A DNA stretch of 64,000 nt, from positions 18,169 to 82,168 of the forward strand of contig JASGJN010000019.1 in assembly GCA_049840735.1 (NCBI GenBank). The letters are read 5' to 3'. A model generated the notes under the pieces. It was not told where the DNA came from and searched no databases. It was given only the letters and a program-made list of their open reading frames with translations. Both the position numbers and the translations under genes were made by a program. The number at the start of each line of letters is the position of its first letter. Within the stretch, counting starts at the first letter, position 1. Origin of the DNA: Anaeromyxobacter sp. (GTDB lineage Bacteria; Myxococcota; Myxococcia; Myxococcales; Anaeromyxobacteraceae). Shown here in pieces: positions 1,980 through 44,941 of this stretch.

Positions 1980-1984
1980 GACGG

Positions 1985-3477: not shown

Positions 3478-3478
3478 C

Positions 3479-4667: not shown

Positions 4668-4745
4668 CGACGCGGGCCTGTCCAGTGTCATCGACGCCGT
4701 GTCGAAGTGATGGCACGCCGAAGTGCTGGCCCGTAACTTCCCCCC

Positions 4746-7190: not shown

Positions 7191-7738
7191 CACACCGCCA
7201 TCACAAGGCGATGGGCGAGGTGCAGTCGAAGATCCCGACCGAGATCCTCCTCACCGAGCGCCGCGAGTACGAGCTCTCGGAGCAGGGGCTCATCGGTCTC
7301 ACCTACAAGAAGGACACGGATAGTGCGTGCTTCTTCTCCGCCAACTCGGCGCAGCGCCCCAAGACCTTCGCCAACACCGCGGAAGGCAAGGCAGCGGAGA
7401 CCAACTTCCGCCTGGGCACGCAGCTCCCGTACATGTTCATCATGACGCGCCTGGCACACTACGTGAAGGTGCTCCAGCGCGAGCAGCTGGGCAGCTGGAA
7501 GGAGCGCGGCCAGCTCGAGCGGGAGCTGAACGCGTGGATGAGTCAGTACGTCGCGGACATGGACGACCCGGCCCCCTCGGTCCGCTCCGCGCGGCCGCTG
7601 CGCCAGGCCGAGGTGAAGGTGGAAGATGTCCCGGGCCAGCCGGGCTGGTATCGTTGTAGCCTGAAAGTGCGCCCGCACTTCAAGTTCATGGGCGCGTCGT
7701 TCACGCTGTCACTGGTGGGCAAGCTCGACAAGGAATGA
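7163..7738 (+). pseudogene. tssC: TssC (VipB, T6SS sheath large subunit) C-terminal fragment only (~175 aa)
   Basis: GEVQSKIPTEILLTERREYELSEQGLIGL...LPYMFIMTRLAHYVKVLQREQLGSWKER...YRCSLKVRPHFKF matches only the last third of TssC. No N-terminal part lies upstream. Confidence 0.8.
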
Positions 7739-7814: not shown

Positions 7815-8300
7815 ATGGCCGAGACAATTCACCTGACGCTGAAGATCAACGGCAACGCGATCAAGGGCGAGAGCACCCAGAACAGCATGGGGCGCGCCGA
7901 CACGATCGAGTGCATCTCCTACGAGCAGTCGGTCCACTCCGCGCGCGAGGCCGCGACCGGCATGGTCACCGGCCGCCGCCAGTTCAGCCCGCTCAAGATC
8001 GTGAAGCGCATCGACAAGAGCTCCCCGCTCCTGCTCAAGGCGCTGAGCCTGAACGAGAAGGTGGAGGGCGTCTTCAAGTTCTACCGCCCGAACCCCACCG
8101 GCGACGGCACCACCGAGATGTTCTACACGGCGGAGATCAAGGAGGGGAACATCGCCTCCGTGAAGCAGCTCGTCCCCACCACCATCCGGCCGGAGACCGC
8201 GGGCGAGCCGCCGCAGGAGGAGATCACGTTCGTGTTCAGGACCATCACCTGGACGTTCTCGAACGGCGGCGTCACCCACACCGACAGCTGGTCCGGGTAG
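7815..8300 (+). CDS. hcp: Hcp (TssD) T6SS tube protein
   Basis: 161-aa ORF with ...IKGES...IECISYEQSV...TGRRQFSPLKIVKRIDKSSPLLLKAL..., a typical Hcp pattern. A GAGGTGG RBS lies upstream. Confidence 0.9.
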   Translation: MAETIHLTLKINGNAIKGESTQNSMGRADTIECISYEQSVHSAREAATGMVTGRRQFSPLKIVKRIDKSSPLLLKALSLNEKVEGVFKFYRPNPTGDGTTEMFYTAEIKEGNIASVKQLVPTTIRPETAGEPPQEEITFVFRTITWTFSNGGVTHTDSWSG

Positions 8301-8386
8301 CGGCGCCTGCGGGGAGGCCCGCGACGCGCCGCGCGCGCGCCGCGGGTCCCTTCCCGCCGGGAGGTCACGTGCCAGGCCGCGGGCTC

Positions 8387-8749
8387 ATGGCCAAGCTGTC
8401 GGGGGCGGGCTCCACGGGGGACATCGAGTCCATCGTGAGCCACCTGCGCGCCCTGCTCAACACGCGGCAGGGGGCGGCGCCGTGCTCGCCCGGCTACGGC
8501 GTGATGGACCTGGCGGACGTGGTGCACGCCTTCCCCTCCGCCGGCCCGCAGCTGGCGCGGGCCATCCGCGCCACCATCCTGGAGTTCGAGCCGCGGCTCC
8601 GGAACGTCAACGTCCGCCACGTGTCGGACGAGCAGGGGCTGGTGCTGCGCTTCGAGATCAGCGGCCAGCTGGCGCAGAGCAAGACCGCCCGGACGCTCCG
8701 CTTCGCGACCACCGTCAGCCCGGGCGGGCGATTCGACGTGGCCGGGTGA
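8387..8749 (+). CDS. tssE: TssE (gp25-like baseplate protein)
   Basis: The ATG at 8387 sits within ORF 7802-8749. SIVSHLRALLNTRQG...GYGVMDL...ILEFEPRL is gp25/TssE-like. An alternative GTG lies at 8369. Confidence 0.85.
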   Translation: MAKLSGAGSTGDIESIVSHLRALLNTRQGAAPCSPGYGVMDLADVVHAFPSAGPQLARAIRATILEFEPRLRNVNVRHVSDEQGLVLRFEISGQLAQSKTARTLRFATTVSPGGRFDVAG

Positions 8750-8756: not shown

Positions 8757-10504
8757 ATGTTCTCGAAGCACTACCAGTCCGAGCTGCAGTTCCTCCGCGC
8801 CATGGGCAAGGAGTTCGCCGCCGCCTATCCGTCGGCGGCTGGCCTGCTGGCCGATCGCGGCGGGGACCCCGACGTGGAGCGGCTGCTGGAGGGGTTCGCC
8901 TTCCTCTCCGCGCGCGTCCGCGAGCGGCTGGACGACGCCGTCCCCGAGCTGATCCACCACCTGGCGGAGGTGCTGGCGCCGCAGGTGATCCGCCCATCCC
9001 CGCCGCCACCGTGGTCGAGTTCCAGCCGCTGCCCGGCGCGCTGCGCGCCCGGCAGACGGTGCCGGCCGGCGCCGAGCTGGGCTCCGCGCCGGTGGACGGC
9101 GTGAGCTGCCGCTTCCGCACCACCGCGCCGCTCGACCTGGTGCCGGTGACGGTGCAGGACGCGGCCCTCGACCAGGCCATCGGCGCCTCGCCGGCGGTGC
9201 GGCTCTCGCTGCAGTGCCCGGCGGCGGCGCTGCCCACCGTGCTGCACGACGACGGGCTCCGCTTCTTCATCCAGGGCGACCTGCCGCTCGCCTCCACCGT
9301 GCTGCTCTGGCTGGCGCGCCACCTGGCCGACGTCCGGCTCCGGGCCCCCGCCTCCGGCAAGGTGATCTCGCTGGGCGCCCGCGCGGTGCACTTCCCGGGC
9401 TTCGGCCCGGAGCTGCCGCTCCTGCCCTGGCCGGCGCTGGCGCCGGCCGGCTACCGGCCGCTGCTGGAGTTCTTCGCGCTGCCGCAGAAGTTCCTCTTCT
9501 TCGACGTGCGCGGGCTGGGCGCCGCCCGGGCGGCCTTCGCCGAGGAGAAGCTGGAGCTGGTCCTCCAGTTCTCCCGCCCGCCCGAGCTGCCCGGCCGGAT
9601 CGGCCGCGACCTGTTCCGCGTGAACTGCGCCCCGGTGGTGAACCTGTTCTCGGCCACCGGCGATCCCATCCGCGTGACCGCGCCGGGCGAGGAGCACCTG
9701 CTCCGCGCGTCCGGCCTGGAGCCGCGCCAGGCCGAGGTCTACACCGTGGACGCCGTCACCGGCGCGCCGGACGCCGCCGGGCGCCGCCGCGAGTACCCGG
9801 CCTTCGCCAGCTTCGCCCACGGGCTGGCGCGCCCCGGCGCCGGCTACCACCGGGTCCGGCTGCAGCGGTCGGTGCTGGACGACGGGCTCGACACCTGGCT
9901 CACGGTGATGACGCCGCGCGACGGCGGCCCCGGCCCGGCGGAGGAGATCCTCTCCACCGAGCTGACCTGCACCAACCGGTCGCTGGCCGGCCGGCTGAAG
10001 CTGGGCGACGTGAACGTCTCCACCCAGACCTCGCCCACCGTGGCCCGGTTCAGGAACGTCCTCCCCGTCACCTACCCGGCGCGCCCGCCGCTGGGCGGGG
10101 ATCTCCAGTGGCGGCTGCTCTCGCACCTGGCCGCGAGCCGCGCCTCGCTGGGCCGGGTGGAGGTGCTCCGCACGGCGCTGGAGCTCTACAACTTCCCCGC
10201 GCTGGCCGACCAGAACGCCGGGCGCGCCAACCAGCTCCGGGTGGACGGCGTGCGCGAGGTGGAGGCCGTCCCCACCCACCGGCTGGTGCGCGGCGCCTCG
10301 GTCTCCGGGGTCCGCTTCCGGCTGGTGCTGGACGAGCAGCACTTCGCCGGCCCCGGCGACGCCTTCATGTTCGGCGGCGTGCTGGACGCCTTCCTGGGCG
10401 CCCACGCCCCCATGAACACCTTCGTCGAGCTCTCGGTCAGGCTCGAGCCCTCGCTGCGCGAGTACACCTGGGCGCCCCGCAGCGGGGCGAGGCCGCTGCT
10501 GTGA
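8757..10504 (+). CDS. tssF: TssF baseplate protein, apparent -1 frameshift at a C-run near 8995
   Basis: The N-terminus YQSELQFLRAMGKEFAAAYP...LLEGFAFLSARV is in ORF 8757-9104. The gene continues as IPAATVVEFQP... in ORF 9011-10504. The span length is not a multiple of 3. Confidence 0.85.
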
Positions 10505-11559
10505 GCGACGGGCTCCCGCCCGCCCCGGCCACCGCGCCCGGCCCCACGCCGGAGGAGCGCGAGCGCGCCGCGCGCGTCGAGGCCGCACGGCGGCAGGGCT
10601 TCGTGCCGCTGCTGCTCCTGCTGGACCGGCTCTCGCCCGGCGCGCTGGACGTGGGCGGCGAGGCCGCGCCCGAGGCGGAGCGGATCCGCTTCCGCCACGA
10701 TCCCTCGCTGGCCTTCGCCCCCAGCGACGTGGTGGCGGTGAAGGAGCGGTCCGGCCCGGAGGAGGCGCAGCCGCGCTGGGACATCACCACCACCTTCCTG
10801 GGCGTGACCGGCACCGTCTCGCCGCTGCCGCCCTACCTGGCCGAGGAGGTGGCGCAGGAGGATCCGGCGGAGCAGCGCAACCGCGCCTTCCTGGATCTCT
10901 TCCACCACCGCGCCATCTCCTTCCTGGCCCGCGGGCTGCTCGCCTACGACCCCGCGGCGGCCCACGGCGCCGGCTCGCACGACCCCTGGTCGGGGCGGCT
11001 GCTCTCCTGGCTCGGGCTGGACGGCCCGCTCGACGGCGAGGCCGCGGCCGAGCTGGGGCTCTCCGACGCCGCCGCCCGCGCCGTGCTGCTCCGCGCCTCG
11101 GCGCTGCTGGCCGAGCGCGCCCTGACCGCCGACGGCCTGGAAGCGCTCCTCAATGACGCCATGCGCGAGGAGCTGGGGCCGGAGGGGCGCATCACGGTGG
11201 AGCAGTTCGTGGGCGCGTGGCTGCCCATCCCGCCCGACGACCGGACCAGGCTGGGCCAGGTGGCCAGCGGGCTGGGCACCTCCATGGTGCTCGGCTCGCG
11301 CGTCTTCGACCGCAGCTGCAGAATCGACGTGGTGGTGGGGCCGCTCGATCGCGGCGGCTACCAGCACTTCGCGCTGGACCTGTCGGTGCAGGGGCGGCTG
11401 CGGGCGGTGATCGCCCACGTCACGCGCGGTGACGTCGCCTACGACCTCGTCCTGGTGCTGGCGCCCGACGCCGCGCCGCCGGCGCAGCTCGGCGCCGCCC
11501 GGCTCGGGCGCGACGCGTGGCTGGGCCGGCAGGCGGCCCTGGCGCGGGTCCGGGTCTGA
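10501..11559 (+). CDS. tssG: TssG baseplate protein
   Basis: The GTG at 10501 overlaps the tssF stop (GTGA). FVPLLLLLDRL...RIRFRHDPSLAF...LGVTGTVSPLPPYLAEE is TssG-like. Confidence 0.85.
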   Translation: MSDGLPPAPATAPGPTPEERERAARVEAARRQGFVPLLLLLDRLSPGALDVGGEAAPEAERIRFRHDPSLAFAPSDVVAVKERSGPEEAQPRWDITTTFLGVTGTVSPLPPYLAEEVAQEDPAEQRNRAFLDLFHHRAISFLARGLLAYDPAAAHGAGSHDPWSGRLLSWLGLDGPLDGEAAAELGLSDAAARAVLLRASALLAERALTADGLEALLNDAMREELGPEGRITVEQFVGAWLPIPPDDRTRLGQVASGLGTSMVLGSRVFDRSCRIDVVVGPLDRGGYQHFALDLSVQGRLRAVIAHVTRGDVAYDLVLVLAPDAAPPAQLGAARLGRDAWLGRQAALARVRV

Positions 11560-11579: not shown

Positions 11580-12626
11580 GTGGGCCACCCCAACCTCGAG
11601 AACCGGACGCCGTACGCCTTCGAGCCCGTCTTCGTCTCCGACGAGGAGGGCCGGCCGCTGCTGGTCGCGGCGGTGAAGGGCACCTGGGACCTGGGCCCGG
11701 CCGTCCCGGCGCTGGCGGAGGAGCAGGCGCCGCTGGAGCTGGCCGGCGTGCCGCACGGCGAGGACCCCGCCAGCTCCAGCTGGAGGTACGAGCCCGAGGG
11801 CGGCTGGCTCAAGCCGGCCACCGACGTGGTGCTGGTGGGCAGCGCCGTCGCCCCGCGGCCGCGCACCGCCGAGCTGCTGGTGGCGCTGCAGGTGGGCGCG
11901 CTGCGCAAGGGCGTGCGGGTGCTGGGGGATCGCGCCTTCTACCGGTCGGTGGCGTCGGTGGGCATGACCGCGCCGGTCCCCTTCGAGCGGATCCCGCTGC
12001 AGTGGGAGCGCGCCTTCGGCGGCTGGGACCGCTCCAGCCCGGACGAGCGGAGGCACACCTGCGAGTTCCGCAACCCGGTCGGCCAGGCCTTCCGCGCCGG
12101 CGGCGCGCGCTTCGAGGACGGCGTCCGCTGCCCCAACCTCGAGGACCCGGCCCGCCCGTTCAAGGGCTGGGGCGACGCCCCGCCGCCGGCCGGCTTCGGC
12201 TTCGTCTCGCCGGACTGGGAGCCGCGGCGCAGGCTGGCCGGCACCTACGACCAGCGCTGGGAGGAGGAGCGGGCGCCGCTCCTGCCGCGCGACTTCTCGC
12301 GCCGCTTCCTCTCCGCGGCCTCCGCCGGGCTGGTGGCACCCGGCTACCTGCGCGGCGACGAGCCGGTGGCCGTGGCCGGGGTGACGGCGCAGGGGGGCCT
12401 GACCTTCAAGCTGCCAGGCTTCGAGCCGCCCAGGGTGAAGGTGATCCGGCGCAACGCCGCCGACGGGACCATCGCCACCCAGCTCGACACCGTCATCATC
12501 GACACCGACGCCATGAAGCTCTTCCTGATCTGGAAGGGCGAGGTGGTGCTGCAGCGCGAGCCGACCGAGGTGCAGTCGCTGGAGATCACGCAGGCCGGCG
12601 GGCCGGCCGCCCGGGACGCGGCGTAG
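11580..12626 (+). CDS. DUF2169-family protein (T6SS spike/PAAR accessory)
   Basis: GTG at 11580 with GGGAG 9 nt upstream. NLENRTPYAF...KPATDVVLVGSAVAP...VLGDRAFY...ERAFGGWD...AGTYDQRWEEERAPLLPRDF matches the DUF2169 pattern. Confidence 0.8.
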   Translation: MGHPNLENRTPYAFEPVFVSDEEGRPLLVAAVKGTWDLGPAVPALAEEQAPLELAGVPHGEDPASSSWRYEPEGGWLKPATDVVLVGSAVAPRPRTAELLVALQVGALRKGVRVLGDRAFYRSVASVGMTAPVPFERIPLQWERAFGGWDRSSPDERRHTCEFRNPVGQAFRAGGARFEDGVRCPNLEDPARPFKGWGDAPPPAGFGFVSPDWEPRRRLAGTYDQRWEEERAPLLPRDFSRRFLSAASAGLVAPGYLRGDEPVAVAGVTAQGGLTFKLPGFEPPRVKVIRRNAADGTIATQLDTVIIDTDAMKLFLIWKGEVVLQREPTEVQSLEITQAGGPAARDAA

Positions 12627-12643
12627 CGAGAGGAGCGAGGACG

Positions 12644-13108
12644 ATGCCTTCCAGCGTGGGCGTGAACAAGCTCTCCATCGTCAACGCCGACACCAACGGC
12701 GTGACGATCGCCTTCCCCGACGTGTGCAAGACCCCGAGCCCCGGCGGCCCGGTGCCCATCCCCTACCCGAACATCGCCAAGTCCTCCGACACGTCCAAGG
12801 GGACCAAGAAGGTGAAGGTGGAGGGAAAGCCGGTCTGCATCCAGGGCTCGACCTTCGCCATGTCCACCGGCGACGAGGCCGGCACCGCCGGCGGCGGCGT
12901 CGCGTCCAACAAGATCAAGGGGCCGGCCGAGTTCGTGAACTACTCCTTCGACGTGCAGCTGGAGGGGAAGGGGGCGGCGCGGTCGTTCGACCTGATGCTG
13001 CACAACCAGAAGAACACGCCGCCCTTCCCGGTGCTGCAGGGGCCGGTGATCGCGATCGGGAAGATGAAGGGCACGGAGAAGTGCCTGGTCTGCGAGAAGG
13101 AGCTCTAG
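12644..13108 (+). CDS. DUF4150 PAAR-like protein, stand-alone (no toxin extension)
   Basis: ATG at 12644 with an AGGAGCGAGG RBS. FPDVCKTPSPGGPVPIPYPNIAKSSD...VKVEGKP...STGDEAGTAGGGV is the DUF4150 signature. The protein is 154 aa and ends CLVCEKEL. Confidence 0.8.
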   Translation: MPSSVGVNKLSIVNADTNGVTIAFPDVCKTPSPGGPVPIPYPNIAKSSDTSKGTKKVKVEGKPVCIQGSTFAMSTGDEAGTAGGGVASNKIKGPAEFVNYSFDVQLEGKGAARSFDLMLHNQKNTPPFPVLQGPVIAIGKMKGTEKCLVCEKEL

Positions 13109-13111
13109 GCC

Positions 13112-13609
13112 ATGGCCCAGCGCGCGCGGAAGCCCGAGGTGCACCTGCTGGAGCGCGCGGCCGCCGCACCGGCGGTGGGCCGCGTGGTGTCGTTCGAGCG
13201 GGGCGTGGTCCGGGTGGAGCACGCCGGCCACACCGGCGGCCCGCTCCGCGCCCGCACCTCGGCGGCGCTGGACGACGCCGCGCTGCAGGCCGCGGCGCAC
13301 GGTCAGCAGGAGGCGCTGCTCGTGTTCGAGGGCGGCGACCCCGCCCGGCCGGTGGTGGTGGCGTTGCTCCGCTCCGAGACGCCGCTCACCGACGCGCTGC
13401 TGGCCGGCCCGCTCCCGCGCGCCGGGAAGACGGCGCGGCTGGACGGGAAGCGGGTGGAGCTGGAAGGGCAGGACGAGGTGGTCCTGAGGTGCGGGAAGGC
13501 CAGCCTCACGCTCCGGCGCGATGGCAAGGTGGTGCTGCGCGGGGTGAACGTGGTGACCCAGGCCGATCAGGTGCACAAGGTCAGGGGTGGAAAGGTGCAG
13601 ATCAACTGA
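13112..13609 (+). CDS. small gp5/VgrG-like protein (OB-fold-like N-terminus plus short beta-helix-like C-terminus; DUF6484-like, tentative)
   Basis: 165 aa. VGRVVSFERGVVRVEH...ALLVFEGGDPARPVVVALL is followed by VELEGQDEVVLRCGKASLTLRRDGKVVLRGVNVVTQADQVHKVRGGKVQIN, which resembles the VgrG/gp5 tip repeat. Confidence 0.5.
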   Translation: MAQRARKPEVHLLERAAAAPAVGRVVSFERGVVRVEHAGHTGGPLRARTSAALDDAALQAAAHGQQEALLVFEGGDPARPVVVALLRSETPLTDALLAGPLPRAGKTARLDGKRVELEGQDEVVLRCGKASLTLRRDGKVVLRGVNVVTQADQVHKVRGGKVQIN

Positions 13610-13634
13610 GGCTCGAGGCACCAGCGAACCAGCC

Positions 13635-14768
13635 ATGGCCCATTCCCAGGGCGCACTCCCGATCACCGGCATCGGCCTCGCGTCGAGCCTCGGCGTCGAT
13701 GCCGTGGGCGCCTGCGCGGCCGCGCGGGCCGGGATCACCCGCGTCTCCGAGGGGGACGGCGCGTTCGTGGTGCTCGACCGCGAGGCCTTCAGCGTGGTCC
13801 CGGTCGCCGGCATGCCGGTGGGCAAGCTCACCACGGGATTCGCCGAGCTGGGGCGCTGGGTGCGCCTCGGCGGGCTGGGGCTGGGAGATCTGCTGCGCCG
13901 CCACCCGCTCACCCCGGCCGAGCTGGCCGAGACGGCGGTCCTGCTGGCGCTCCCGGGCGATCACCTGCTCACCGCCGCGGCCGCGCTCCGCAAGCAGCGA
14001 GGGGCTCCGGCGGAGCCAGGTGGCCCGACCTATCAGGAGCTCGTCCCCTACTATCGCAGCGAGCTGCCCGCCAAGCTGTTCCGCGCGGTGAGCCGGCCGG
14101 CGCCGGCGCATGCCGAGGTCTTCTTCGAGGACGAGCCGGGCTTCCTGCGGGCGCTGGTGCGGGCGCGCCAGCTGCTCGAGGAGCGCAGGGTGAGGCGCTG
14201 CCTGGTGGGCGGCATCGACTCGCTGCTCGAGCGGTCGTGGCTCGACGCAGCGTTCGAGCTGGGGCTCCTCAAGACCGCCACTCGTCCCACCGGGTTCATG
14301 CCCGGCGAAGCGGCCGCGTTCCTGCTGCTCGAGGGGGAGACAGAGGCACGGCGGGCGGAGCGGCCGGTGCTGGCGCGGCTGGAGGGGATCGAGGGGCGGC
14401 CCGAGGCTGAACGCGGGAAGGTGGTCGGCTCGAGAGGACGCGCGCTGGCGGAGCTCATCGGGGCCTCGCTGCGTCAGGCCTCTCGCCCCTGCAGCGGCTT
14501 CTACTGCAATCTCAACGGTGACTCCGGCCGCGCCCAGGAGTGGGGCTTCGCGCTGGTGCGCTTGCCGCAGGAGGCGCACCCGGCCGCCACCTTGCTACCG
14601 ACGCTCTCCTTCGGCGAGACGCGCAGCGCCTTCGGTCCGCTCGCCGCCTGCATGGCCGTCCGCGCCTTCGCGCGCAAGTACGCACCTTCCGACTCGCTCC
14701 TGGTCTGGCTCGCCTCCGAGGCGGGCGGGCGCGGGAGCTTCGTCGTCACGCGGGAGCGCCGAGCATGA
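13635..14768 (+). CDS. beta-ketoacyl-synthase/thiolase-like protein lacking the catalytic triad (copy 1)
   Basis: 377 aa with a KS-like layout (ITGIGLASSLG, VGGIDS, GFMPGEAAAFLLLE, FGETRSAFGPLAA). By-eye alignment puts FFEDEPGF at the A-C-x-S-G site, NLNGDS at HGTGT and GETRSAFG at GHxxGAAG. Confidence 0.7.
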   Translation: MAHSQGALPITGIGLASSLGVDAVGACAAARAGITRVSEGDGAFVVLDREAFSVVPVAGMPVGKLTTGFAELGRWVRLGGLGLGDLLRRHPLTPAELAETAVLLALPGDHLLTAAAALRKQRGAPAEPGGPTYQELVPYYRSELPAKLFRAVSRPAPAHAEVFFEDEPGFLRALVRARQLLEERRVRRCLVGGIDSLLERSWLDAAFELGLLKTATRPTGFMPGEAAAFLLLEGETEARRAERPVLARLEGIEGRPEAERGKVVGSRGRALAELIGASLRQASRPCSGFYCNLNGDSGRAQEWGFALVRLPQEAHPAATLLPTLSFGETRSAFGPLAACMAVRAFARKYAPSDSLLVWLASEAGGRGSFVVTRERRA

Positions 14769-15457
14769 GCGGGAACAGCGAACACACGCCCAAACCCGTC
14801 GAGATGAAGGGCGTGTTCGAGCGGAACGAGGAGTACCGCGACAACTGCCAGGGCGGGTGCAAGGGCGGCTACCACGGGCACCGCTGGGACGCGCACCACA
14901 TCCTGCCCTGCACGTCGTTCTCGGAGGCGAGCGCGTTCGTGCGCCAGTGCCTGGAGGCGACCGACTACGACATCAACAAGACCTACTCCATGTGCGGCCT
15001 CCCCCGGCTGACCGCGTTCATCCTCTACTTCCAGTCGGACAAGAGCATCCCGTTCGTGTTCGACCGGGAGCGGACGGTCACCATGCGCCGGTGGGGGAAG
15101 GTGGCGCAGTACCTCAAGGACCAGGGCAAGCCGGTCGTCTTCCCGGGAGAGCTGCCGGTGCACAACCCAGTGCACTGGGGGCACACCGACTACAACGTCC
15201 AGGTCGCCAAGTCGCTCAAGCAGAACGTGTTCAAGCAGATCATGGTCCGGGCGAGGCAGGAGAAGCACTTCAAGCCAGAGGAGATTCGGGCGCTCCTGGA
15301 AAAGGAGCGGCAGAGCTTCTGGAACCAACTCCAAGAAATCCCGCGCAAGCCCGGCGGGGGTGGGCTGACGGGAATCGAGAACAACCTCAGGCACCGATAT
15401 GACTCCGCCCGCGACGGCTGGTGGAAGCCGATGTGCATGACGGAGACCATCAGCTGA
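14765..15457 (+). CDS. AHH-family (HNH/EndoVII fold) nuclease toxin, copy 1
   Basis: The ATG overlaps the upstream stop (ATGA at 14765-14768). Motifs are RWDAHHILP, DYDINKTYSMCGLP and HWGHTDYN. The protein is 230 aa with no recognisable trafficking domain. Confidence 0.7.
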   Translation: MSGNSEHTPKPVEMKGVFERNEEYRDNCQGGCKGGYHGHRWDAHHILPCTSFSEASAFVRQCLEATDYDINKTYSMCGLPRLTAFILYFQSDKSIPFVFDRERTVTMRRWGKVAQYLKDQGKPVVFPGELPVHNPVHWGHTDYNVQVAKSLKQNVFKQIMVRARQEKHFKPEEIRALLEKERQSFWNQLQEIPRKPGGGGLTGIENNLRHRYDSARDGWWKPMCMTETIS

Positions 15458-15508: not shown

Positions 15509-16091
15509 ATGCCCTTCGTGCAGATCCTCGACGACCTTCGACGCCAAGACGGCCCGTTTCAAATCCGTCAAGGGGTTCGAGGACACGTTCGAGTTCCTGA
15601 TGGGAATCCCGGTAGCCGACCATTTCCCGTCCGATGCCACGTTCGAACGATGAGCGAGGACTTCCCGGACCGGATCGCCTTGCAGGACTTCCTGCCGAAT
15701 GAGGACAGCGTGCTCGTCGTGAGCGAGCGGGTGTTGCGGATCCTGGAGGCGGAGAAGGTTCAGCACCTCGAGTACCTTCCCGTCCGTGTCGTCAACCACA
15801 AGGGGCGCAAGGTCCCGGAGCCGTATTTCATCCTGAACCTCCATCCCTTCGTGGACTGCGTCGATCAGAAGCAGAACCAGGTTCCAGCTGAACGACGTGA
15901 ACCCGGACGTGTGGTACGGCGTCACCGACCTGACCCTCCGGGAGGACGCGGTCCCGGCGGACTACAAGCTCTTCGGCGTTCCTCGGATCCCGGGGCTGGT
16001 CATCGTCGAGCAGGAGCTGGGGGACAAGCTGAGGGGGGCCAAGCTGGAGGGCTTCAGGCTGGTCGAGCTTTCCAAGGCCGAGGAAATCTAG
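15509..16091 (+). CDS. Imm11 (DUF1629)-family immunity protein, copy 1, reading frame broken about 3 times
   Basis: DFPDRIALQDFLPNEDSVLVVSERVLRILEAEKVQHLEYLPV and the C-terminus VWYGVTDLTL...LEGFRLVEL parallel the intact paralogues at 28428 and 30159. Shifts lie near ~15530, ~15645 and ~15880. Confidence 0.6.
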
Positions 16092-16141: not shown

Positions 16142-16945
16142 ATGGAACCCATCTCCGAATGCTGTGAAGACCTGGTCGTCCTCCTGAACGCCCACGCCAC
16201 GGCCGCGGACAAGGCGCCGACGGTGGAGGACCGGGTAAGGGCCGCCGACGCCGCCTGCGCCTACTACCAGGGTGTGGGGATCTGCGAGCTGCTGCTGGAC
16301 GCCGAGGTGGATGCCTTCTTCCACCACTTCATCCGCTCGGCGCAGTCGCGCCGGTGGGTGCTGCAGCAGCGCCCTGGCCCTCTGGGCACGGTCCCATCCG
16401 TCTCCGGGATCATGAAGGCCAGCAACACGCGCGGACTGTTCGCGGCCATGGCGGCCGGCCAGTGGCGCCTGGCCGAGGACATCGCGCGCCTGTCCCCCGA
16501 CGCCTGGAGCGCGGCGGACGAGTACGAGGACGACTTCTGCTACGCGTCCTTTCTCCACGGCCACCTGCTCGGCGCCGCGCACGACCAGCTGGACGCGATC
16601 CTGGCGCGGTTCGAGAAGGCGCTGGAGGGCGGCGAGGCGGTCCGGCGGGACCTGTGCCGGGCGCTGCTGGCCAAGGAGGCCAGCGCCCTCCTGGCCGCGT
16701 TCGACGCGCTCATCGCCGAGCGGGACGAGCACCTGGCCAAGCTGCGCCAGGGGCCGATGTGCCGGGACTCGCTCTTCACGCCCTTCGCGTCGGTGTACGT
16801 GGAGGGGCTGGCCTGGCTGGCCCTGCTGGAGCGCGCCGGCGTCGCCACGCCGGCCGAGGTGGACTACTGTCCTGCGCTGGTGCGCACCACGGCCTTCGCG
16901 CCCTTCGTGCCCAGCTCCTTCCCGGGGTTGCCGCTGGAAGGCTGA
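16142..16945 (+). CDS. all-helical putative immunity protein (Imm49-like, tentative), paralogue 1
   Basis: 267 aa. It shares the pattern DEYEDDFCYASFL ... ALEGGEAVRRDLCRALL ... VYVEGLAWLALL with four other ORFs in the island. Confidence 0.5.
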   Translation: MEPISECCEDLVVLLNAHATAADKAPTVEDRVRAADAACAYYQGVGICELLLDAEVDAFFHHFIRSAQSRRWVLQQRPGPLGTVPSVSGIMKASNTRGLFAAMAAGQWRLAEDIARLSPDAWSAADEYEDDFCYASFLHGHLLGAAHDQLDAILARFEKALEGGEAVRRDLCRALLAKEASALLAAFDALIAERDEHLAKLRQGPMCRDSLFTPFASVYVEGLAWLALLERAGVATPAEVDYCPALVRTTAFAPFVPSSFPGLPLEG

Positions 16946-19071: not shown

Positions 19072-22197
<3,126 letters not shown>

Positions 22198-26414: not shown

Positions 26415-27506
26415 ATGAGCACGCTCGCGATCCGAGCCATCGGGCTCTCGACCCCGCTCGGCGGCGGGGTGCAGGCGTGCGCCGCGGCCCGTGCCGGGAT
26501 CTCTCGGCCTGGCCCGGCGCCTGACGTGACCGTCATGTTCCCGGGGGACGAGGAGCCGCAGCCGGTCACGGTGCACGCCCACCCGACGGCGACGCAGGGG
26601 TTCACGGGGGCGGGCCGGCTCATCGCGCTGCTGCAGGAGGCGTTGATCGACCTGGTGTACTCGGTGCCCGCGACGACGTGGGCGAGCCGCACGCGGCTGT
26701 TCCTCGCCCTGCCCGATCCGCTCTGGCGCGAGCCGGAGACGCTGGACGAGGGCGAGCGTGAGCTGCCGGCCGAGGAGCGGATCGCTGCGCTCGGGCAGAA
26801 GGTGGTGAAGGGCGTGTGCGCGGCGACCGGGCTGCCGCTCCAGCAGCTCACGCCTTCGTTCCACGGCGGGGACGAGCTGGCCTTCTCGCACGCGCTGGTC
26901 GCCGCAGCGCGCGCCCTGGAGGCCCGGCAGCTCGAGACCGCCCTGGTCTGCGCCGCGGACAGCCTGGTCGGCGCAGACACGCTCGAGCTGTTCGCCGCAG
27001 AGGGGCGGCTCAAGCACGGCGACCAGCCGGTCGGGTTCACTCCCGGCGAGGCGGCCGGCGCGGTGCTCCTGACGGCGCCGGCTCGCGGCCAGGCGTCGTT
27101 CACGGTCGCGCCGCCCGCCATCGCTGTGGACGCGTGGCGCTGGGGTGCCGAGGCCCCCTCCGATGGCCGGAAGCTGGCGGGTTGCTTGGTGAGCGCGGCA
27201 GCCGCGGTCCCACCGAACATGCCGCTCGCGTTGGTCTCGGATTGCGACGGGGAGACCCACCGGGCGCGCGAGCTCGGGCTGGCGCGGGTCCACCTGAAGC
27301 GGCGCCACCCTGGGCTGGCGGAGTCCGAGGTCAGATACCCGGCGCTAGCCTTCGCGCGGACCGGCGTGGCCTCCGGGCTGCTCGGCCTGGCGGCTGCGCG
27401 GCATGCGCTCTGGCGCGAGAAGTCGGCGCCGCGCCACTTCATCGTGGCGAGCAGTGCCGACGACGGGAAGCGGAGCGCCTTCCTGGTGACGAGGACGACG
27501 GCATGA
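26415..27506 (+). CDS. beta-ketoacyl-synthase/thiolase-like protein lacking the catalytic triad (copy 2)
   Basis: 363 aa. It carries IRAIGLSTPLGGGVQACAAARAGIS, LVCAADSLV and GFTPGEAAGAVLL. GGDELAF lies at the Cys site, SDCDGET at the first His motif and FARTGVASG at the second. Confidence 0.7.
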   Translation: MSTLAIRAIGLSTPLGGGVQACAAARAGISRPGPAPDVTVMFPGDEEPQPVTVHAHPTATQGFTGAGRLIALLQEALIDLVYSVPATTWASRTRLFLALPDPLWREPETLDEGERELPAEERIAALGQKVVKGVCAATGLPLQQLTPSFHGGDELAFSHALVAAARALEARQLETALVCAADSLVGADTLELFAAEGRLKHGDQPVGFTPGEAAGAVLLTAPARGQASFTVAPPAIAVDAWRWGAEAPSDGRKLAGCLVSAAAAVPPNMPLALVSDCDGETHRARELGLARVHLKRRHPGLAESEVRYPALAFARTGVASGLLGLAAARHALWREKSAPRHFIVASSADDGKRSAFLVTRTTA

Positions 27507-28411
27507 AGGCCTCCCTTCCCTCCCAGCTCAGGACGCCGGCCCAGATGAACACGGAGTTGGCGCGCCAGCTCAAGGGTGTCCTGACGCTCACGCTGGAGCA
27601 GAACCGGTGGACGCTCCGGGAGCTGGTGCAGAAGCTCCAGGCGCTGCCTTACCCGCCGCCGGAGACGGAGCCCGAGCCGGAGCGGGCGGGCACCGCCAAG
27701 GAGACCCCAGGAGGACACGTCTCCTCCGCCGGGTTCGCCACGGCGGTGCTGGCGAAGGATGCGAGCAAGTACGCGCGGCGCGGGGTCCGGTACATCAAGG
27801 AGCAGATCGGCCGCGGGGTGTACCAGAAGTTCGATCACCTCGACACGATTCGTTCGATCCCGAAGGAGATCATCGAGGACGTCAAGAAGGCGGCGAAGTT
27901 CCCCGGCGGCCCGAAGCACAACTTCAACCTGCGCTTCGGGATGAGCTACCCGTACACCTGGCGGGCGCATCACATCCTGCCGGGGTCGGCGTTCTACTAC
28001 GAACGGAAGAGGGGCCCCTGCTTCAAGCCCGAGCACTTCGCGATCCTGCTGCAGACCGACTACAACGTGAACGGGGGCCACAATATCATCCTGCTGCCGT
28101 TCGAGAATTGGGCCGTGCTCGTGCACGCGCTCGTCCAGCACCCGAGCGATCACCCGACCTACACGCAGGCGGTGATGGAGAGGCTGGCGGAGGTCGCAAG
28201 GAAGATCGACGCTCTCATGAAGGCGAAGAAGCACGATCAGGCAAAGGAGGACTTCCGGAGGGAACTGCTCGAGGCGGAGAGCGACTTCTGGGACCTTCTC
28301 GTCCGGCTCGGGAAGAAGGTGACGGCCGGGCTCATCAGCGGACGGCAGTATCAATCCGATTTCGTGAAGTACGCGACCCAGGGTGGAGAAAGGCAGTCCG
28401 CGCTGAAGTAG
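27503..28411 (+). CDS. AHH-family nuclease toxin, copy 2
   Basis: An ATGA overlap with the upstream gene lies at 27503-27506. Motifs are WRAHHILP, DYNVNGGHNIILLP and HPSDHPTYT. The ~160-aa N-terminal region is unrelated to copy 1. Confidence 0.7.
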   Translation: MKASLPSQLRTPAQMNTELARQLKGVLTLTLEQNRWTLRELVQKLQALPYPPPETEPEPERAGTAKETPGGHVSSAGFATAVLAKDASKYARRGVRYIKEQIGRGVYQKFDHLDTIRSIPKEIIEDVKKAAKFPGGPKHNFNLRFGMSYPYTWRAHHILPGSAFYYERKRGPCFKPEHFAILLQTDYNVNGGHNIILLPFENWAVLVHALVQHPSDHPTYTQAVMERLAEVARKIDALMKAKKHDQAKEDFRRELLEAESDFWDLLVRLGKKVTAGLISGRQYQSDFVKYATQGGERQSALK

Positions 28412-28427
28412 GCGTTGGCTGAACGGT

Positions 28428-29012
28428 ATGAACTACTGGATCATTGCGAGGGATGCACCGGAGGGAGGTCTCATCGACTCCTACCCCGCGGACGGGCCGG
28501 AGGACTTCCTGTGGGATCGCGGAGAGCCGCTCGCGGCAGCCTATCCCCCGAATGCGTGCGTGCAGTTCTCAGACAACTTCCCTGACGCACGACAGCTGGA
28601 GGACTTCCAGCCCAACATCCTGAACGCGCTCATCGTGTCTCCGAAGGCGCAGGAGGTGCTCCAGGGGCTGGAGCTGAAGAACGTCGAGTACCTCCCGGTG
28701 GCGATCCGGGACCATCGGGACGAGGTGATCGCCTCCGACTACGCCTTCGTGAACGTGCTCGGAAGCCAGCCCGCGATCGACATGGAGAGGTCGGTCTACC
28801 GGATGGGCTCGCTCGACAAGACGCAGATAACCCGAATCAAGAACCTCGTGCTCCAGCCTCAGGCCATCGCCCCGGACGCGAAGCTCTTGCGCTGCACCAC
28901 GTACATGACGCTCTTCCTGATCCGCGACGACGTGCGCGAGGCGTTCGAGCGCGCGCAGCTCACCGGCTACCAGCTCATCCAGCCGGACGGCTGGGACGGC
29001 CTCATCATCTGA
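28428..29012 (+). CDS. Imm11 (DUF1629)-family immunity protein, copy 2
   Basis: Intact 194 aa with NFPDARQLEDFQPNILNALIVSPKAQEVLQGLELKNVEYLPV...LTGYQLIQ. Confidence 0.7.
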   Translation: MNYWIIARDAPEGGLIDSYPADGPEDFLWDRGEPLAAAYPPNACVQFSDNFPDARQLEDFQPNILNALIVSPKAQEVLQGLELKNVEYLPVAIRDHRDEVIASDYAFVNVLGSQPAIDMERSVYRMGSLDKTQITRIKNLVLQPQAIAPDAKLLRCTTYMTLFLIRDDVREAFERAQLTGYQLIQPDGWDGLII

Positions 29013-42162: not shown

Positions 42163-42317
42163 GCCACAGCCGGCCGGCCCTGGCCCGTCGATCCCCGTCC
42201 TGGGGGTGAAACAGCCGCATGGCCAGACCCCTCGTTTCGAGGGATACTGACCGGACCGGCAGTGCACACAGGATGGGCCCCGGCCACGCGCAGCGCGGCC
42301 GTCGGGAGGGGAACCGC

Positions 42318-44938
42318 ATGCGCGTCGAGGCTCGCTCGCTGGTCCGGAAGCTCACCCCCACCGCCACCCGCGCGCTCGAGGCCTCGGTGGGCCGCGCCGC
42401 CCAGGGCGGCTACTACGAGCTGACGGTGGAGCACCTGCTCTCGTCGCTGCTCGAGCCGGACGAAGGCGACGTCGCGCTGCTGATGCAGGCGCACGGCGCC
42501 AATCGCCGCCGGCTGGCCGGCGCGGTGGAGCGGGTCCTCTCCGCCATGAAGACCGGCAACCCGGGGCGCCCGGTCATCTCGGAGAGCGTCTTCACCTGGC
42601 TGGAGGAGGCCTGGCTGACCGCGTCGGTGGACCTGGGCGCGTCCAAGCTGCGCACCGGCCACCTGCTGCTGCAGCTGGTCGCCAAGCCCGACCGCTACAC
42701 CGGCGACTCCTACGCGGTGCTGGAGGAGCTGGACGAGAAGGCCATGAAGGCCGGGCTGGAGGACCTGCTGGCCGGCAGCCCGGAGGCGCACGAGGCGCTG
42801 GTGGAGGGCGCGGCGGCGCCGGGCGGCGAGGGTGCTCCCGGCAAGCCCGGGCAGGCCGGCGGTGAGGCGCTGGCGCGCTTCGCCACCAACTTCACGCAGC
42901 GCGCCCGCGACGGCAAGATCGACCCCATCTTCGGCCGCCACCGCGAGATCCGCCAGGTGATCGACATCCTGGCCCGCCGCCGCAAGAACAACCCCATCAT
43001 CGTGGGCGAGCCGGGCGTGGGGAAGACCGCGCTGGTCGAGGGGCTGGCGATCGCCATCGCCGCGGGCGACGTGCCGGACGCGCTGAAGGAGGTCGAGCTG
43101 CTGGGGCTCGACCTGGGGCTGCTCCAGGCCGGCGCCAGCGTGCGCGGCGAGTTCGAGAACCGGCTCAAGGCGGTCATCTCGGAGGTGAAGGCCTCGGCCC
43201 GGCCCATCATCCTCTTCATCGACGAGGCCCACACCATGATCGGCGCCGGCGGCACGGCCGGCGGCAGCGACGCGGCCAACCTGCTCAAGCCGGCGCTGGC
43301 GCGCGGCGAGCTGCGGACCATCGCGGCCACCACCTGGAGCGAGTACAAGAAGTACTTCGAGAAGGACGCCGCCCTGGAGCGGCGCTTCCAGCCGGTCAAG
43401 GTGGACGAGCCCTCCGACGAGGACGCGGTGGTGATGCTGCGCGGCCTGCGCGCCGCCTACGAGGCGGCGCACGGGGTGGTGATCCGCGACGAGGCCATCA
43501 CCGCCGCCGTGACCCTGTCCCGCCGCTACCTCTCCGGCCGGCAGCTGCCGGACAAGGCGGTGGACCTGCTCGACACCGCCGCCGCCCGCGTCAAGATCGC
43601 CCTGGCCGCCCGGCCGGAGGCGCTGGTGGCGGCGCAGGAGGAGATCGCCGCCCTGGAGCGGGCCCGCGCCGCGGTGACCCGCGACGTGACCGACGGCCAG
43701 CGCAAGGAGGACGGCGCGGTGGCCGACCTCGACGCCCGCCTGGCGGCGGCGCGCGACCGCGTGGCGGGGCTGGAGACGCGGCTGGGCGCGGAGCGCGCGG
43801 CGGTGGAGGCCCTGCGCGCGGCGCGGGCCGCGCTGGCCGAGGGGAAGGGCGACCGGGCCGCGGTGGACGCGGCGGCGGAGGCGCTGGCCAAGCTGCAGGG
43901 CGAGCGCCCGCTGCTCCACGCCGAGGTGGACGCCGACGCGGTGGCCCGCGTGATCGAGGCCTGGACCGGCGTGCCGGCGGGCAAGATGCGCTCGGGGCAG
44001 ATCCAGGCGGTGCTGGAGGTCGAGCAGCGGCTCACCGAGCGCGTGAAGGGGCAGCCGGAGGCGGTGAAGGCGGTGGCCGAGGCGCTGCGCATCTCGCACG
44101 CCGGCATCCGCAACCCGGGCGCGCCGGTGGGCGTGCTGCTCTTCGTGGGCCCCAGCGGCGTGGGCAAGACCGAGACCGCGGTGGCGCTGGCCGACCTGCT
44201 CTACGGCGGCGAGCGGTTCATGACCCAGATCGCCATGAGCGAGTTCCAGGAGAAGCACTCGGTCTCGCGGCTGATCGGCTCGCCCCCGGGCTACGTCGGC
44301 TACGGCGAGGGCGGCCGGCTCACCGAGGCGGTGCGGCAGCGCCCGTACTCGGTGGTGCTGCTGGACGAGTGCGAGAAGGCCGACCTGGAGGTGATGAACC
44401 TCTTCTACCAGGTGTTCGACAAGGGCACCCTCACCGACGGTGAGGGGCGCGAGGTGGACTTCAAGAACACCCTGGTGATCCTCACCTCCAACCTGGCCAC
44501 CGACCTGATCATGGCGGCCTTCGACGACGAGGAGAAGCCCACCGCCGAGCAGGTGGCGGCCGCCATCCGGCCCATCCTCTCCAAGCACTTCAAGCCGGCG
44601 CTGCTGGCCCGCATGACCATCGTCCCCTTCGCGCCGCTGCCGAAGGACGTGCTGAAGGGAGATCGTCCAGCTCAAGCTGGGCGCGCTGGCGAAGCGGCTC
44701 ACCGCCAGCCACGGCATCCAGGCCGCCTTCGCGCCGGAGCTGGTGGACCACCTGGCCGGCCGCTGCCAGGACCCGGGAGACCGGCGCCCGCAACGTGGAC
44801 CACGTGCTGCGCGGCGGGCTCATGTCCGACCTCGCCCGCGCGCTGCTGGAGCGGATGGCCTCCGGCACCCCCGCCGCCCGCGTGGCGGTGGCGGTGGACG
44901 CCCAGGGCGCCTTCCAGATCACCTTCGACGAGGCCTGA
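42318..44938 (+). CDS. clpV: ClpV (TssH) AAA+ ATPase, two apparent +1 frameshifts near the 3' end (~44658, ~44777)
   Basis: The Clp N-domain is followed by Walker A motifs GEPGVGKTA and GPSGVGKTE. Other matches are RFQPVKVDEPS and SRLIGSPPGYVGYGEGG. The tail EIVQLKLGALAKRL... / ETGARNVDHVLRGG...FDEA* is in the two other frames. Confidence 0.9.
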
Positions 44939-44941
44939 GCC

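What the first reader, a model, noticed from the sequence alone, without database searches (positions are those of the whole stretch)
11580..13609. DUF2169, stand-alone DUF4150 PAAR-like protein and a 165-aa gp5/VgrG-like mini-spike directly after tssG, with no VgrG in view
Seen in sequence:
- Three tightly packed genes follow tssG.
- The DUF4150 protein is only 154 aa, with no toxin extension.
- The next ORF combines an OB-fold-like N-terminus (VGRVVSF..LLVFEGGDPARPVVVALL) with a short repeat typical of VgrG/gp5 tips (LRCGKASLTLRRDGKVVLRGVNVV..VRGGKVQIN).

Established knowledge:
- DUF4150 caps VgrG like PAAR does. DUF2169 accompanies such proteins.
- In Tse7 of P. aeruginosa the nuclease is fused to the DUF4150 domain.

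Inference:
- Here the system looks split: a cap without toxin, and toxins encoded separately.
- The mini-spike could extend or replace a VgrG tip. That is not a described arrangement as far as I know.
Basis: partly seen in the sequence, partly recalled or inferred. Interest (0 to 1): 0.65.

Follow-up and report, generated by a model that had tools for sequence, protein, structure and literature searches.

The report
T6SS spike-cap loading module (Tvp)
The three genes after tssG, plus the next gene, form a recently described helper set that loads a sharp cap protein onto the type VI secretion spike; the 165-aa protein is a cut-down copy of the spike used as a stand-in, so this is a real but already known kind of system.

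Summary
Three genes follow tssG:
- 11580-12626: single-domain DUF2169 protein (TvpA).
- 12644-13108: 154-aa stand-alone DUF4150/"PIPY" PAAR-like cap.
- 13112-13609: 165-aa DUF6484 protein.
No vgrG lies anywhere in the 64-kb window.

The 165-aa protein is a minimised VgrG. Residues 24-88 align with the VgrG OB-fold. Its last 60 residues align end-to-end with the last 60 residues of VgrG. Its predicted fold matches contractile-injection spikes.

The next gene (13635-14768) is a PRK06147/thiolase-like protein. The four genes match the "Class II Tvp" set (TvpA, PAAR, TvpC, TvpD) of Monlezun et al. (bioRxiv 2026) and synteny type A of Sachar et al. (JBC 2025). There, TvpC is proposed to be a VgrG mimic that holds the chaperoned PAAR in a pre-complex until the real VgrG takes over.

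PAAR-less AHH-type nuclease toxins with Imm11 genes follow each of two TvpD paralogues. The claim that this is undescribed does not hold.

Local peculiarities are the gene order TvpA-PAAR-TvpC-TvpD, an invariant C-terminal CxxC tail on the PAAR, and no adjacent vgrG. All three recur in Myxococcota relatives.

Verdict: new member of a known kind, modest interest.

The parts
7211..7738 (+). tssC, C-terminal fragment only (175 aa)
   Evidence: Pfam VipB_2 E 8.4e-45. The VipB match covers only profile positions 246-301. The upstream sequence is unrelated and has lower GC.
7815..8300 (+). hcp
   Evidence: PF05638, E 1.9e-24.
8300..8749 (+). tssE (gp25-like); start codon not fixed
   Evidence: PF04965, E 1.5e-16.
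8757..10504 (+). tssF
   Evidence: PF05947, E 5.6e-104.
10501..11559 (+). tssG; start approximate
   Evidence: PF06996, E 4.5e-71.
11580..12626 (+). tvpA: single-domain DUF2169 chaperone of the PAAR-like cap (348 aa)
   Evidence: PF09937, E 1.4e-84. Matches the solved DUF2169 structure 8vth at E 8.4e-19 over residues 15-321. No pentapeptide-repeat extension.
12644..13108 (+). Stand-alone DUF4150/PIPY PAAR-like cap (154 aa) with a 28-aa C-terminal tail ending in CxxC
   Evidence: PF13665, E 4.6e-42, residues 20-126. PIPY motif read directly (PVPIPYPN). C28, C65, C147 and C150 are invariant in 35 homologues. Matches the N-terminal PAAR-like domain of the Rhs effector 8qjc at E 3.9e-15.
13112..13609 (+). 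tvpC: DUF6484 mini-VgrG (165 aa) with disordered basic N-terminus, OB-fold (about residues 21-88) and a C-terminal copy of the VgrG tip (about residues 106-165)
   Evidence: Pfam match; AF2 model; Foldseek against PDB and viral structures; hhalign of C-terminal and N-terminal parts; tblastn; C-terminal identity matrix.
13635..14768 (+). tvpD: PRK06147 / thiolase-like accessory protein (377 aa)
   Evidence: NCBIfam NF004798, E 1.4e-41, 142.8 bits, below the equivalog cut-off of 342. Orthologues occupy the same position in relatives.
14765..15457 (+). PAAR-less AHH-type nuclease toxin candidate (230 aa); its start overlaps the tvpD stop by 4 nt
   Evidence: WDAHHILP motif. Pfam AHH E 0.012, below the cut-off. 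A 52%-identical orthologue follows tvpD in L009. Paralogous cassette toxins pass the AHH cut-off.
15509..16091 (+). Imm11 immunity gene, broken by frameshifts
   Evidence: PF07791, E 1.6e-9. The intact L009 orthologue matches the window in alternating reading frames.
16142..16945 (+). Imm49-family gene, followed by a paralogue-like ORF at 16962-17651
   Evidence: PF15575, E 1.7e-8.
26424..27506 (+). Second tvpD paralogue (start approximate)
   Evidence: tblastn 32% identity over query residues 8-373, E 1.6e-17.
27503..28411 (+). Second AHH nuclease toxin (302 aa); its start overlaps the tvpD2 stop
   Evidence: PF14412, E 1.7e-10, 41.3 bits against a cut-off of 22.3.
28407..29012 (+). Imm11 gene of the second cassette
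   Evidence: PF07791, E 5.3e-6.
42219..45044 (+). clpV (tssH)
   Evidence: AAA_2 E 1.7e-54, AAA_lid_9, Clp_N. 79% identical to the Anaeromyxobacter MAG locus L010.
44942..46465 (+). tagH / fha
   Evidence: T6SS_FHA_C E 4.6e-16 and FHA E 3.7e-11.

Best explanation

Proposed mechanism:
1. TvpA shields the hydrophobic face of the cap.
2. TvpC forms a trimer. It keeps only the OB-fold and the last ~60 residues of a VgrG, so it offers the same blunt tip on which the cap sits.
3. This gives a pre-complex of TvpC, cap, TvpA and TvpD.
4. The cap is then handed to a full-length VgrG encoded outside the window. That VgrG is predicted to be of the type ending ...LKGSKISxN.
5. TvpC is left behind in the cell.
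6. The toxins are separate AHH-type nucleases, each encoded right after a TvpD paralogue and followed by an Imm11 gene. They probably ride on the cap or spike with TvpD's help.

Shown here: the family memberships, the collinear homology of TvpC to VgrG, and the gene neighbourhoods.

[quoted passage not shown] The pre-complex and hand-over were demonstrated only for the Class III (DUF3540) TvpC of Serratia marcescens and are modelled for Class II.

Inferred: the hand-over in this organism and the role of TvpD in toxin loading.
For: Family matches:
- Pfam matches for all three genes above the gathering score.
- PRK06147 homology of the fourth gene, E 1.4e-41.
- TvpA matches the solved DUF2169 structure 8vth, E 8.4e-19.

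TvpC is a minimised VgrG:
- hhalign of a 40-sequence TvpC profile against a 14-sequence VgrG profile aligns TvpC 106-165 with VgrG 696-755 of 755, ending exactly at both C-termini (35% identity, E 9.6e-6).
- TvpC 24-88 aligns with the VgrG OB-fold at 391-463 (E 5e-5).
- tblastn of a VgrG against the window hits only tvpC significantly (VgrG 700-755, 37.5% identity, E 1.3e-7).
- With C-termini in register and no gaps, the last 56 residues are 16-39% identical to one VgrG type and 0-12% to the other VgrG type or types.
- The AF2 model gives pLDDT above 90 for the OB-fold and a disordered residue 1-20.
- Foldseek top hits are PVC/AFP central spikes, the 175-aa R2 pyocin spike 4s37, VgrS and VgrG1 (E 4e-6 to 1e-3). 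Viral hits include small phage gp5/Vgr OB-fold baseplate proteins.

The family is large and uniform:
- 3775 cluster representatives at E <= 1e-3; the best 150 listed are mostly about 140-200 aa.

Synteny:
- PAAR lies immediately upstream of TvpC in 26 of 38 related loci.
- At least 10 loci have TvpA-PAAR-TvpC contiguous.
- Two vgrG genes lie directly beside the module in close relatives.

Literature:
- Class II definition and the PA0096 model.
- Synteny type A and the requirement for DUF2169.
- PRK06147 proposed as an adaptor.

Toxins:
- AHH and Imm11 Pfam hits.
- 4-nt overlaps between tvpD stop and toxin start.
Against: - No trimer or complex model could be computed here. The C-terminal strands of the monomer model have low confidence (pLDDT 48-77).
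- The hand-over model is experimental only for Class III TvpC (DUF3540). For DUF6484 proteins it rests on AlphaFold models, plus Sachar et al.'s report that P. mirabilis transposon mutants of each pef-cluster gene lose killing.
- The cognate VgrG was not seen, and the T6SS cluster in the window is cut within tssC.
- No cognate-specific co-variation between TvpC and the neighbouring VgrG tail was visible.
- TvpD-toxin adjacency is not universal. In L016 the AHH toxin follows TvpC directly, and TvpD is followed by an Imm49-like gene.
- The first toxin's AHH match is below the Pfam cut-off, and its neighbouring Imm11 gene is frameshifted.
Confidence: 0.7

Rival explanations
1. TvpC is a true, secreted mini-spike. 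Like P2 gpV or the R2 pyocin spike, it would carry the cap at the tip of the tube, either on a separate hub or stacked on VgrG. It would then replace or extend VgrG.
For: It has the size and fold class of stand-alone phage and pyocin spikes (4s37, about 175 aa, E 2e-5; small phage gp5-like proteins). No vgrG is in the window.
Against: - It has no gp27-like module to dock on Hcp.
- No stand-alone Phage_GPD hub gene was found in the window.
- Close relatives with the same module carry two full-length vgrG genes next to it.
- In S. marcescens, the TvpC complex and the VgrG1 complex are mutually exclusive.
Confidence: 0.1
2. TvpC is a holding or decoy partner. It binds the cap-chaperone complex to keep it soluble, or to limit or time spike assembly, without acting as a template for transfer to VgrG.
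For: The tip mimicry would serve equally well for sequestration. Nothing here addresses transfer.
Against: Sachar et al. report that in P. mirabilis type A clusters transposon inactivation of each cluster gene abolishes killing. In S. marcescens the Tvp proteins are essential for the VgrG1-Paar1 assembly. Both argue for a positive assembly role.
Confidence: 0.12
3. The 165-aa ORF is a decayed VgrG fragment with no function of its own.
For: It matches only two short stretches of VgrG. The window carries other broken genes (tssC, zwf, Imm11).
Against: - The family has 3775 cluster representatives; the best 150 listed are mostly about 140-200 aa.
- 22 columns are invariant in 40 homologues.
- Third-position GC is 0.95, typical of expressed genes here.
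- Its place next to the PAAR gene is conserved in 26 of 38 loci.
Confidence: 0.02

Closest known systems
Class II Tvp system of Pseudomonas aeruginosa H1-T6SS: vgrG1b cluster PA0095-PA0099 (PA0096 = DUF6484 TvpC, PA0097 = DUF2169 TvpA, PA0098 = PRK06147 TvpD, PA0099 = Tse7). Equivalent to synteny type A of Sachar et al.; also the Proteus mirabilis pef operon and V. parahaemolyticus VP1395-VP1399.
   Same: The same four protein families occur together. TvpC is a short OB-fold plus very short beta-prism protein without a gp27 module. TvpA is single-domain, with no pentapeptide repeats.
   Different: - Gene order here is TvpA-PAAR-TvpC-TvpD, not vgrG-TvpC-TvpA-TvpD-PAAR.
- The cap is not fused to its toxin, whereas Tse7 and PefD/PefE-type effectors are fused.
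- Toxins are separate AHH-type proteins, each after a TvpD paralogue.
- There is no adjacent vgrG.
- The cap has a C-terminal CxxC tail.
- By Sachar's rule (the gene directly downstream of DUF2169) the locus would be typed B, although it holds the type A accessory genes.
Class III Tvp system of Serratia marcescens Db10 (TvpAB, TvpB, TvpC = DUF3540, Paar1)
   Same: The DUF4150 cap is stand-alone with no effector domain. A VgrG-like TvpC lacks the gp27 module. This is the only system in which the pre-complex and replacement by VgrG were shown experimentally.
   Different: TvpC here is DUF6484, not DUF3540, and much shorter. There are no pentapeptide-repeat proteins. A TvpD is present.
Stand-alone central spikes of contractile injection systems (P2 gpV, R2 pyocin spike PA0616 / PDB 4s37, Pvc8/Afp8)
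   Same: An OB-fold followed by a trimeric beta-structure in a protein of about 170 aa. These are the best Foldseek matches.
   Different: Those proteins are the working spike and are ejected. TvpC is proposed to stay in the cell as a template. Only a monomer model was compared (TM about 0.3).
VgrG of Myxococcota relatives (the type ending ...LKGSKISxN)
   Same: The OB-fold segment and the last ~56-60 residues are homologous and collinear. Both proteins end at the same ...K(I/V)x(Q/I)N C-terminus.
   Different: TvpC lacks residues corresponding to about 1-385 (gp27 module) and about 465-695 (most of the beta-prism).

Membership tests
TvpC, Class II (DUF6484 family, PA0096-like) | Pfam PF20093 match above the gathering score | tested here: met
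   51.7 bits against a cut-off of 27.6, E 1.5e-13, residues 22-86.
TvpC, Class II (DUF6484 family, PA0096-like) | OB-fold plus very short beta-prism; no gp27 module; unstructured N-terminal tail | tested here: met
   - The protein is 165 aa.
- AF2 gives the OB-fold at residues 21-88 with pLDDT above 90. Residues 1-20 average pLDDT 49-61, with residues 1-3 and 7-14 below 50. C-terminal strands have low confidence.
- hhalign places it on the VgrG OB-fold and on the VgrG tip.
- Foldseek matches spikes.
TvpC, Class II (DUF6484 family, PA0096-like) | Forms a trimer that binds PAAR at its tip | not testable with these tools
   Only monomer prediction is offered.
TvpC, Class II (DUF6484 family, PA0096-like) | Is replaced by VgrG in the mature complex and is not secreted | not testable with these tools
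   This needs experiments. It has been shown only for the Class III TvpC.
Class II Tvp system / synteny type A | Co-occurrence of DUF2169, DUF4150, DUF6484 and PRK06147/thiolase-like genes | tested here: met
   All four lie in a row at 11580-14768.
Class II Tvp system / synteny type A | Gene directly downstream of DUF2169 is thiolase-like (Sachar's typing rule); vgrG adjacent | tested here: not met
   The downstream gene is DUF4150, and the thiolase-like gene is third. No vgrG is in the window. Composition fits the class; order does not.
Class II Tvp system / synteny type A | Armadillo-like repeat protein (IPR006911) in the cluster | not tested
   No InterPro scan was available. All-alpha Imm49-family genes follow the cassette, but equivalence was not examined.
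TvpA (single-domain DUF2169 chaperone) | PF09937 over the full length, no pentapeptide-repeat extension, similarity to the solved DUF2169 structure | tested here: met
   E 1.4e-84, profile positions 1-294 of 294. 8vth at E 8.4e-19. 348 aa.
DUF4150 / PIPY PAAR-like cap | PF13665 match and the P(I/V)P(Y/F) motif | tested here: met
   E 4.6e-42. PIPY read at residues 38-41, invariant in 35 homologues.
TvpD (PRK06147) | NCBIfam NF004798 equivalog score | tested here: inconclusive
   It is the best NCBIfam hit at E 1.4e-41, but 142.8 bits is below the cut-off of 342. It is a homologue but not an equivalog by NCBI's threshold. Its position next to the module is conserved.
AHH nuclease toxins (PF14412) | Pfam match above the gathering score | tested here: inconclusive
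   The first toxin (14765-15457) scores 16 bits against a cut-off of 22.3, but has the AHH motif. The second toxin (27503-28411) scores 41.3 bits and meets the cut-off.
TvpC, Class III (DUF3540) | DUF3540 domain, long beta-prism | tested here: not met
   No DUF3540 hit at E <= 0.1. The protein is only 165 aa.

The most novel reading that the evidence does not exclude
In this myxobacterial version, one toxin-less cap serves several interchangeable PAAR-less AHH nucleases. Each TvpD paralogue would be the private adaptor of the toxin encoded right behind it. The cap's invariant C-terminal CxxC tail, absent from the 124-126-aa caps of the Pseudomonas-order loci, would be the docking or metal-binding element that replaces the covalent cap-toxin link of Tse7. 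That would make TvpD an effector adaptor rather than only a PAAR co-chaperone.
Probability: 0.25. Interest if true: 0.5.

Novelty: new member of a known kind. Interest (0 to 1): 0.3.

Why it matters
DUF6484 proteins have only just been proposed as VgrG stand-ins, and for Class II that rests on structure predictions. This locus adds plain sequence evidence for the idea: TvpC is collinear with VgrG and ends in the same C-terminal tip.

It also shows that the module is common in Myxococcota in a split form, with cap and toxin as separate genes and toxins paired with TvpD paralogues. That form could be a convenient system for separating the roles of TvpA, TvpC and TvpD.

It does not change the picture of how type VI secretion works.

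Tried and rejected
- AF2 model of the PAAR from 35 close homologues failed (mean pLDDT 36). Nothing can be said about how the CxxC tail packs.
- Looking up the window's own 165-aa protein in the contig index found nothing.
- An exact 40-mer scan of metagenome contigs found nothing.
- No sequencing run holds the tssC junction; the share of words was at most 0.05. So the rest of the 110-kb contig, the location of vgrG and the reality of the tssC truncation could not be checked.
- A PDB sequence search with TvpD gave only spurious 'Pizza' designer-protein hits to its first 37 residues and weak KS II hits (E 0.24). The state of the thiolase catalytic residues was not determined.
- A search for cognate-specific similarity between each TvpC tail and its neighbouring VgrG tail showed no excess over non-cognate pairs.
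- Rfam gathering scan of the window: no hits.
- The idea that toxin N-terminal Cys pairs match the cap's CxxC tail was dropped. The second toxin type has no such pair.
- Strict TvpD-toxin adjacency was rejected as a rule after L016.
Full report
**What is there**

The window is very GC-rich (72-78% after about 8 kb). A type VI secretion sub-cluster runs on the + strand:
- a C-terminal fragment of tssC (7211-7738)
- hcp (7815-8300)
- tssE (about 8300-8749)
- tssF (8757-10504)
- tssG (to 11559)

Three genes follow tssG with gaps of 20, 17 and 3 nt. All three match Pfam above the gathering score:
- 11580-12626, 348 aa: DUF2169 (E 1.4e-84).
- 12644-13108, 154 aa: Tox-PAAR-like / DUF4150 (E 4.6e-42, residues 20-126).
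- 13112-13609, 165 aa: DUF6484 (E 1.5e-13, residues 22-86).

The next gene (13635-14768) belongs to the same unit. Its best NCBIfam match is PRK06147, a thiolase-like '3-oxoacyl-ACP synthase' (E 1.4e-41, below the equivalog cut-off).

**The 165-aa protein is a minimised VgrG**

Homologues and family size:
- 353 homologues were found; the 120 best listed all carry PF20093, and most are 162-173 aa (range 130-184). The closest is 73% identical.
- A profile search over 1.84 billion cluster representatives found 3775 at E <= 1e-3; the best 150 listed are mostly about 140-200 aa.

Structure:
- The AF2 monomer model has a confident OB-fold (residues 21-88, pLDDT above 90).
- Its N-terminus is disordered and basic.
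- Its C-terminal strands have low confidence, as expected for a strand-swapped trimer modelled alone.
- Foldseek against the PDB returns only central spikes at the top: PVC and AFP spikes, the 175-aa R2 pyocin spike, VgrS and VgrG1 (E 4e-6 to 1e-3).
- Foldseek against viral models returns small phage gp5/Vgr OB-fold baseplate proteins.

Sequence comparison with VgrG proteins taken from related loci:
- Profile-profile comparison aligns TvpC residues 106-165 with the last 60 residues of VgrG (696-755 of 755). Identity is 35%, E 9.6e-6, and the alignment ends at both C-termini.
- TvpC residues 24-88 align with the VgrG OB-fold at 391-463 (E 5e-5).
- With C-termini in register and no gaps, the last 56 residues are 16-39% identical to the VgrG type ending ...LKGSKISxN. 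They are 0-12% identical to the other VgrG type or types.
- The protein thus keeps the OB-fold and the very tip of a VgrG. It lacks the gp27 module and most of the prism.

**No vgrG in the window**

In a tblastn with two VgrG proteins, the only significant match was tvpC itself; all other matches had E >= 0.15. Pfam scans of the other main ORFs found none.

The window also lacks tssA, tssB, tssJ, tssK, tssL and tssM. clpV (42219-45044) and tagH (44942-46465) lie about 30 kb downstream.

In a relative (L001), tssJ, tssK, tssL, tssM and two vgrG genes sit directly beside the same DUF2169-PAAR-DUF6484 module. The missing genes are therefore probably in another sub-cluster. This is an inference.

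**Relatives**

A scan of one genome per species returned 38 loci, nearly all Myxococcota. The best were Anaeromyxobacter/Anaeromyxobacteraceae-type MAGs, at 66-68% identity.

Gene neighbourhoods by tblastn:
- The PAAR gene lies immediately upstream of tvpC in 26 of 38 loci.
- TvpA-PAAR-TvpC is contiguous in at least 10 loci, mostly with tvpD next.
- 14 loci have vgrG within the fetched flanks. In several close relatives two vgrG genes lie directly upstream of tvpA on the opposite strand (for example L001 and L004-L008).
- 10 loci with full 10-kb flanks have no vgrG.
- Four loci, from Desulfobacteria and Smithella MAGs and two MAGs labelled only Deltaproteobacteria or Pseudomonadota, show the Pseudomonas order TvpC-TvpA-TvpD-PAAR, preceded by vgrG in at least one (L029). 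Their caps are also stand-alone, at 124-179 aa.

So a toxin-less cap, this gene order and a missing neighbouring vgrG are all ordinary within this lineage.

**What is known**

- Sachar et al. (J Biol Chem 2025, PMC11883445) defined three DUF2169 syntenies. Type A holds DUF6484, thiolase-like and armadillo-like genes. They showed that DUF2169 is required for delivery of DUF4150 ('PIPY') effectors in P. aeruginosa and V. parahaemolyticus.
- Liu et al. (2020, PMC7714669) proposed PRK06147 as an adaptor, from its adjacency to PAAR and effector genes.
- Monlezun, Earl and Coulthurst (bioRxiv 2026, 10.64898/2026.02.23.707444) named these proteins Tvp. [quoted passage not shown] P. aeruginosa PA0096-PA0099 is the model. 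They state that Myxococcota sequences fit their classes.

The four genes here meet the composition of Class II.

**How it most likely works**

1. TvpA covers the hydrophobic face of the cap. This is established for the family.
2. A TvpC trimer presents a VgrG-like tip on which the cap sits. Homology is shown here; the complex is modelled in the literature for Class II.
3. TvpD joins as a second chaperone or adaptor.
4. The cap is transferred to a full-length VgrG encoded elsewhere, and TvpC stays in the cell. This is inferred from the Class III experiments.

**Toxins**

- The gene overlapping the tvpD stop (14765-15457) has a WDAHHILP motif and a sub-threshold AHH match.
- A second tvpD paralogue (26424-27506) is followed in the same overlapping way by a clear AHH nuclease (27503-28411, E 1.7e-10) and an Imm11 gene.
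- In relatives, tvpD is followed by an AHH-type protein in several loci: Pfam-confirmed in L008, L014 and L026, and by motif or sequence similarity in L001, L002, L007, L009 and L022.
- In Vitiosangium (L016), however, the AHH toxin and Imm11 follow tvpC directly, and tvpD is followed by an Imm49-like gene.
- The split cap/toxin design is therefore well supported. A specific TvpD-toxin pairing is only suggested.

**Extra detail on the cap**

- All 153-156-aa Myxococcota caps carry a 28-aa tail after the PAAR-like domain, ending in an invariant CxxC.
- With C28 and C65, this gives four invariant cysteines.
- The 124-126-aa caps of the other gene order lack the tail.
- Its role is unknown. The AF2 model of the cap failed.

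**Caveats**

- Only monomer models could be made.
- The cognate VgrG was not seen.
- The left 7.2 kb of the window has 63-65% GC, holds frameshifted zwf and opcA-like genes, and abuts a tssC cut to its last 175 codons.
- The Imm11 gene behind the first toxin is read in alternating frames relative to its intact orthologue.
- These may be real decay, a rearrangement or assembly errors. No reads or second assembly could be found to decide.

**Verdict**

This is a real, correctly observed feature and a well-conserved myxobacterial member of the recently described Class II Tvp spike-cap loading system. It differs in gene order and has a split cap/toxin design. Novelty is low to moderate. Its main value is sequence-level support for the VgrG-mimic idea and a lead on TvpD and the cap's CxxC tail.

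Noticed in passing
window 47547-49589: A 217-nt tandem repeat of 9.5 copies, 94% matching. Each unit carries 26-30-nt inverted-repeat arms. The region has no codon periodicity and no Rfam match, and it lies downstream of tagH.
   Followed up: partly
window 1-7200 and 7211-7738: The left end has 63-65% GC, against 72-78% elsewhere. zwf (4897-6280) is frameshifted near 5650 and the opcA-like ORF (about 6142-7200) is broken. tssC starts abruptly with only its last 175 codons. This may be a rearrangement, a foreign segment or an assembly chimera.
   Followed up: partly
window 15509-16091: The Imm11 immunity gene behind the first AHH-like toxin is split over alternating reading frames, with at least 2-3 frameshifts relative to its intact 193-aa orthologue in L009. 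The toxin gene itself is intact.
   Followed up: yes
window 13027-13108 (PAAR residues 127-154): The stand-alone cap has a conserved 28-aa C-terminal tail ending in an invariant CxxC. C28, C65, C147 and C150 are invariant in 35 homologues. This suggests a four-cysteine metal site or a docking element. The tail is absent from the 124-126-aa caps of loci with the Pseudomonas gene order.
   Followed up: partly
window 26424-29012: A second cassette of tvpD paralogue, AHH nuclease and Imm11 lies 12 kb downstream of the first. It is preceded by a 618-aa protein with no Pfam match (23351-25207) and an RCC1-repeat protein (25225-26376).
   Followed up: partly
window 17700-39900: About 30 kb between the tvp module and clpV is an island. 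It holds extra Imm11/Imm49-family genes (30015-30743, 30938-31531, and the start of 32278-34521), a kinase fused to an nSTAND1 NTPase (18925-22197), a second Ser/Thr kinase with a zinc ribbon (36140-38062, minus strand), and Ig-like and FHA proteins.
   Followed up: no
L001 3730-8284 and other loci: Relatives carry two divergent VgrG types side by side. Only the type ending ...LKGSKISxN resembles the TvpC tail. Precomputed Pfam lists a faint DUF6484 hit on the VgrG products, listed beside Phage_base_V.
   Followed up: partly
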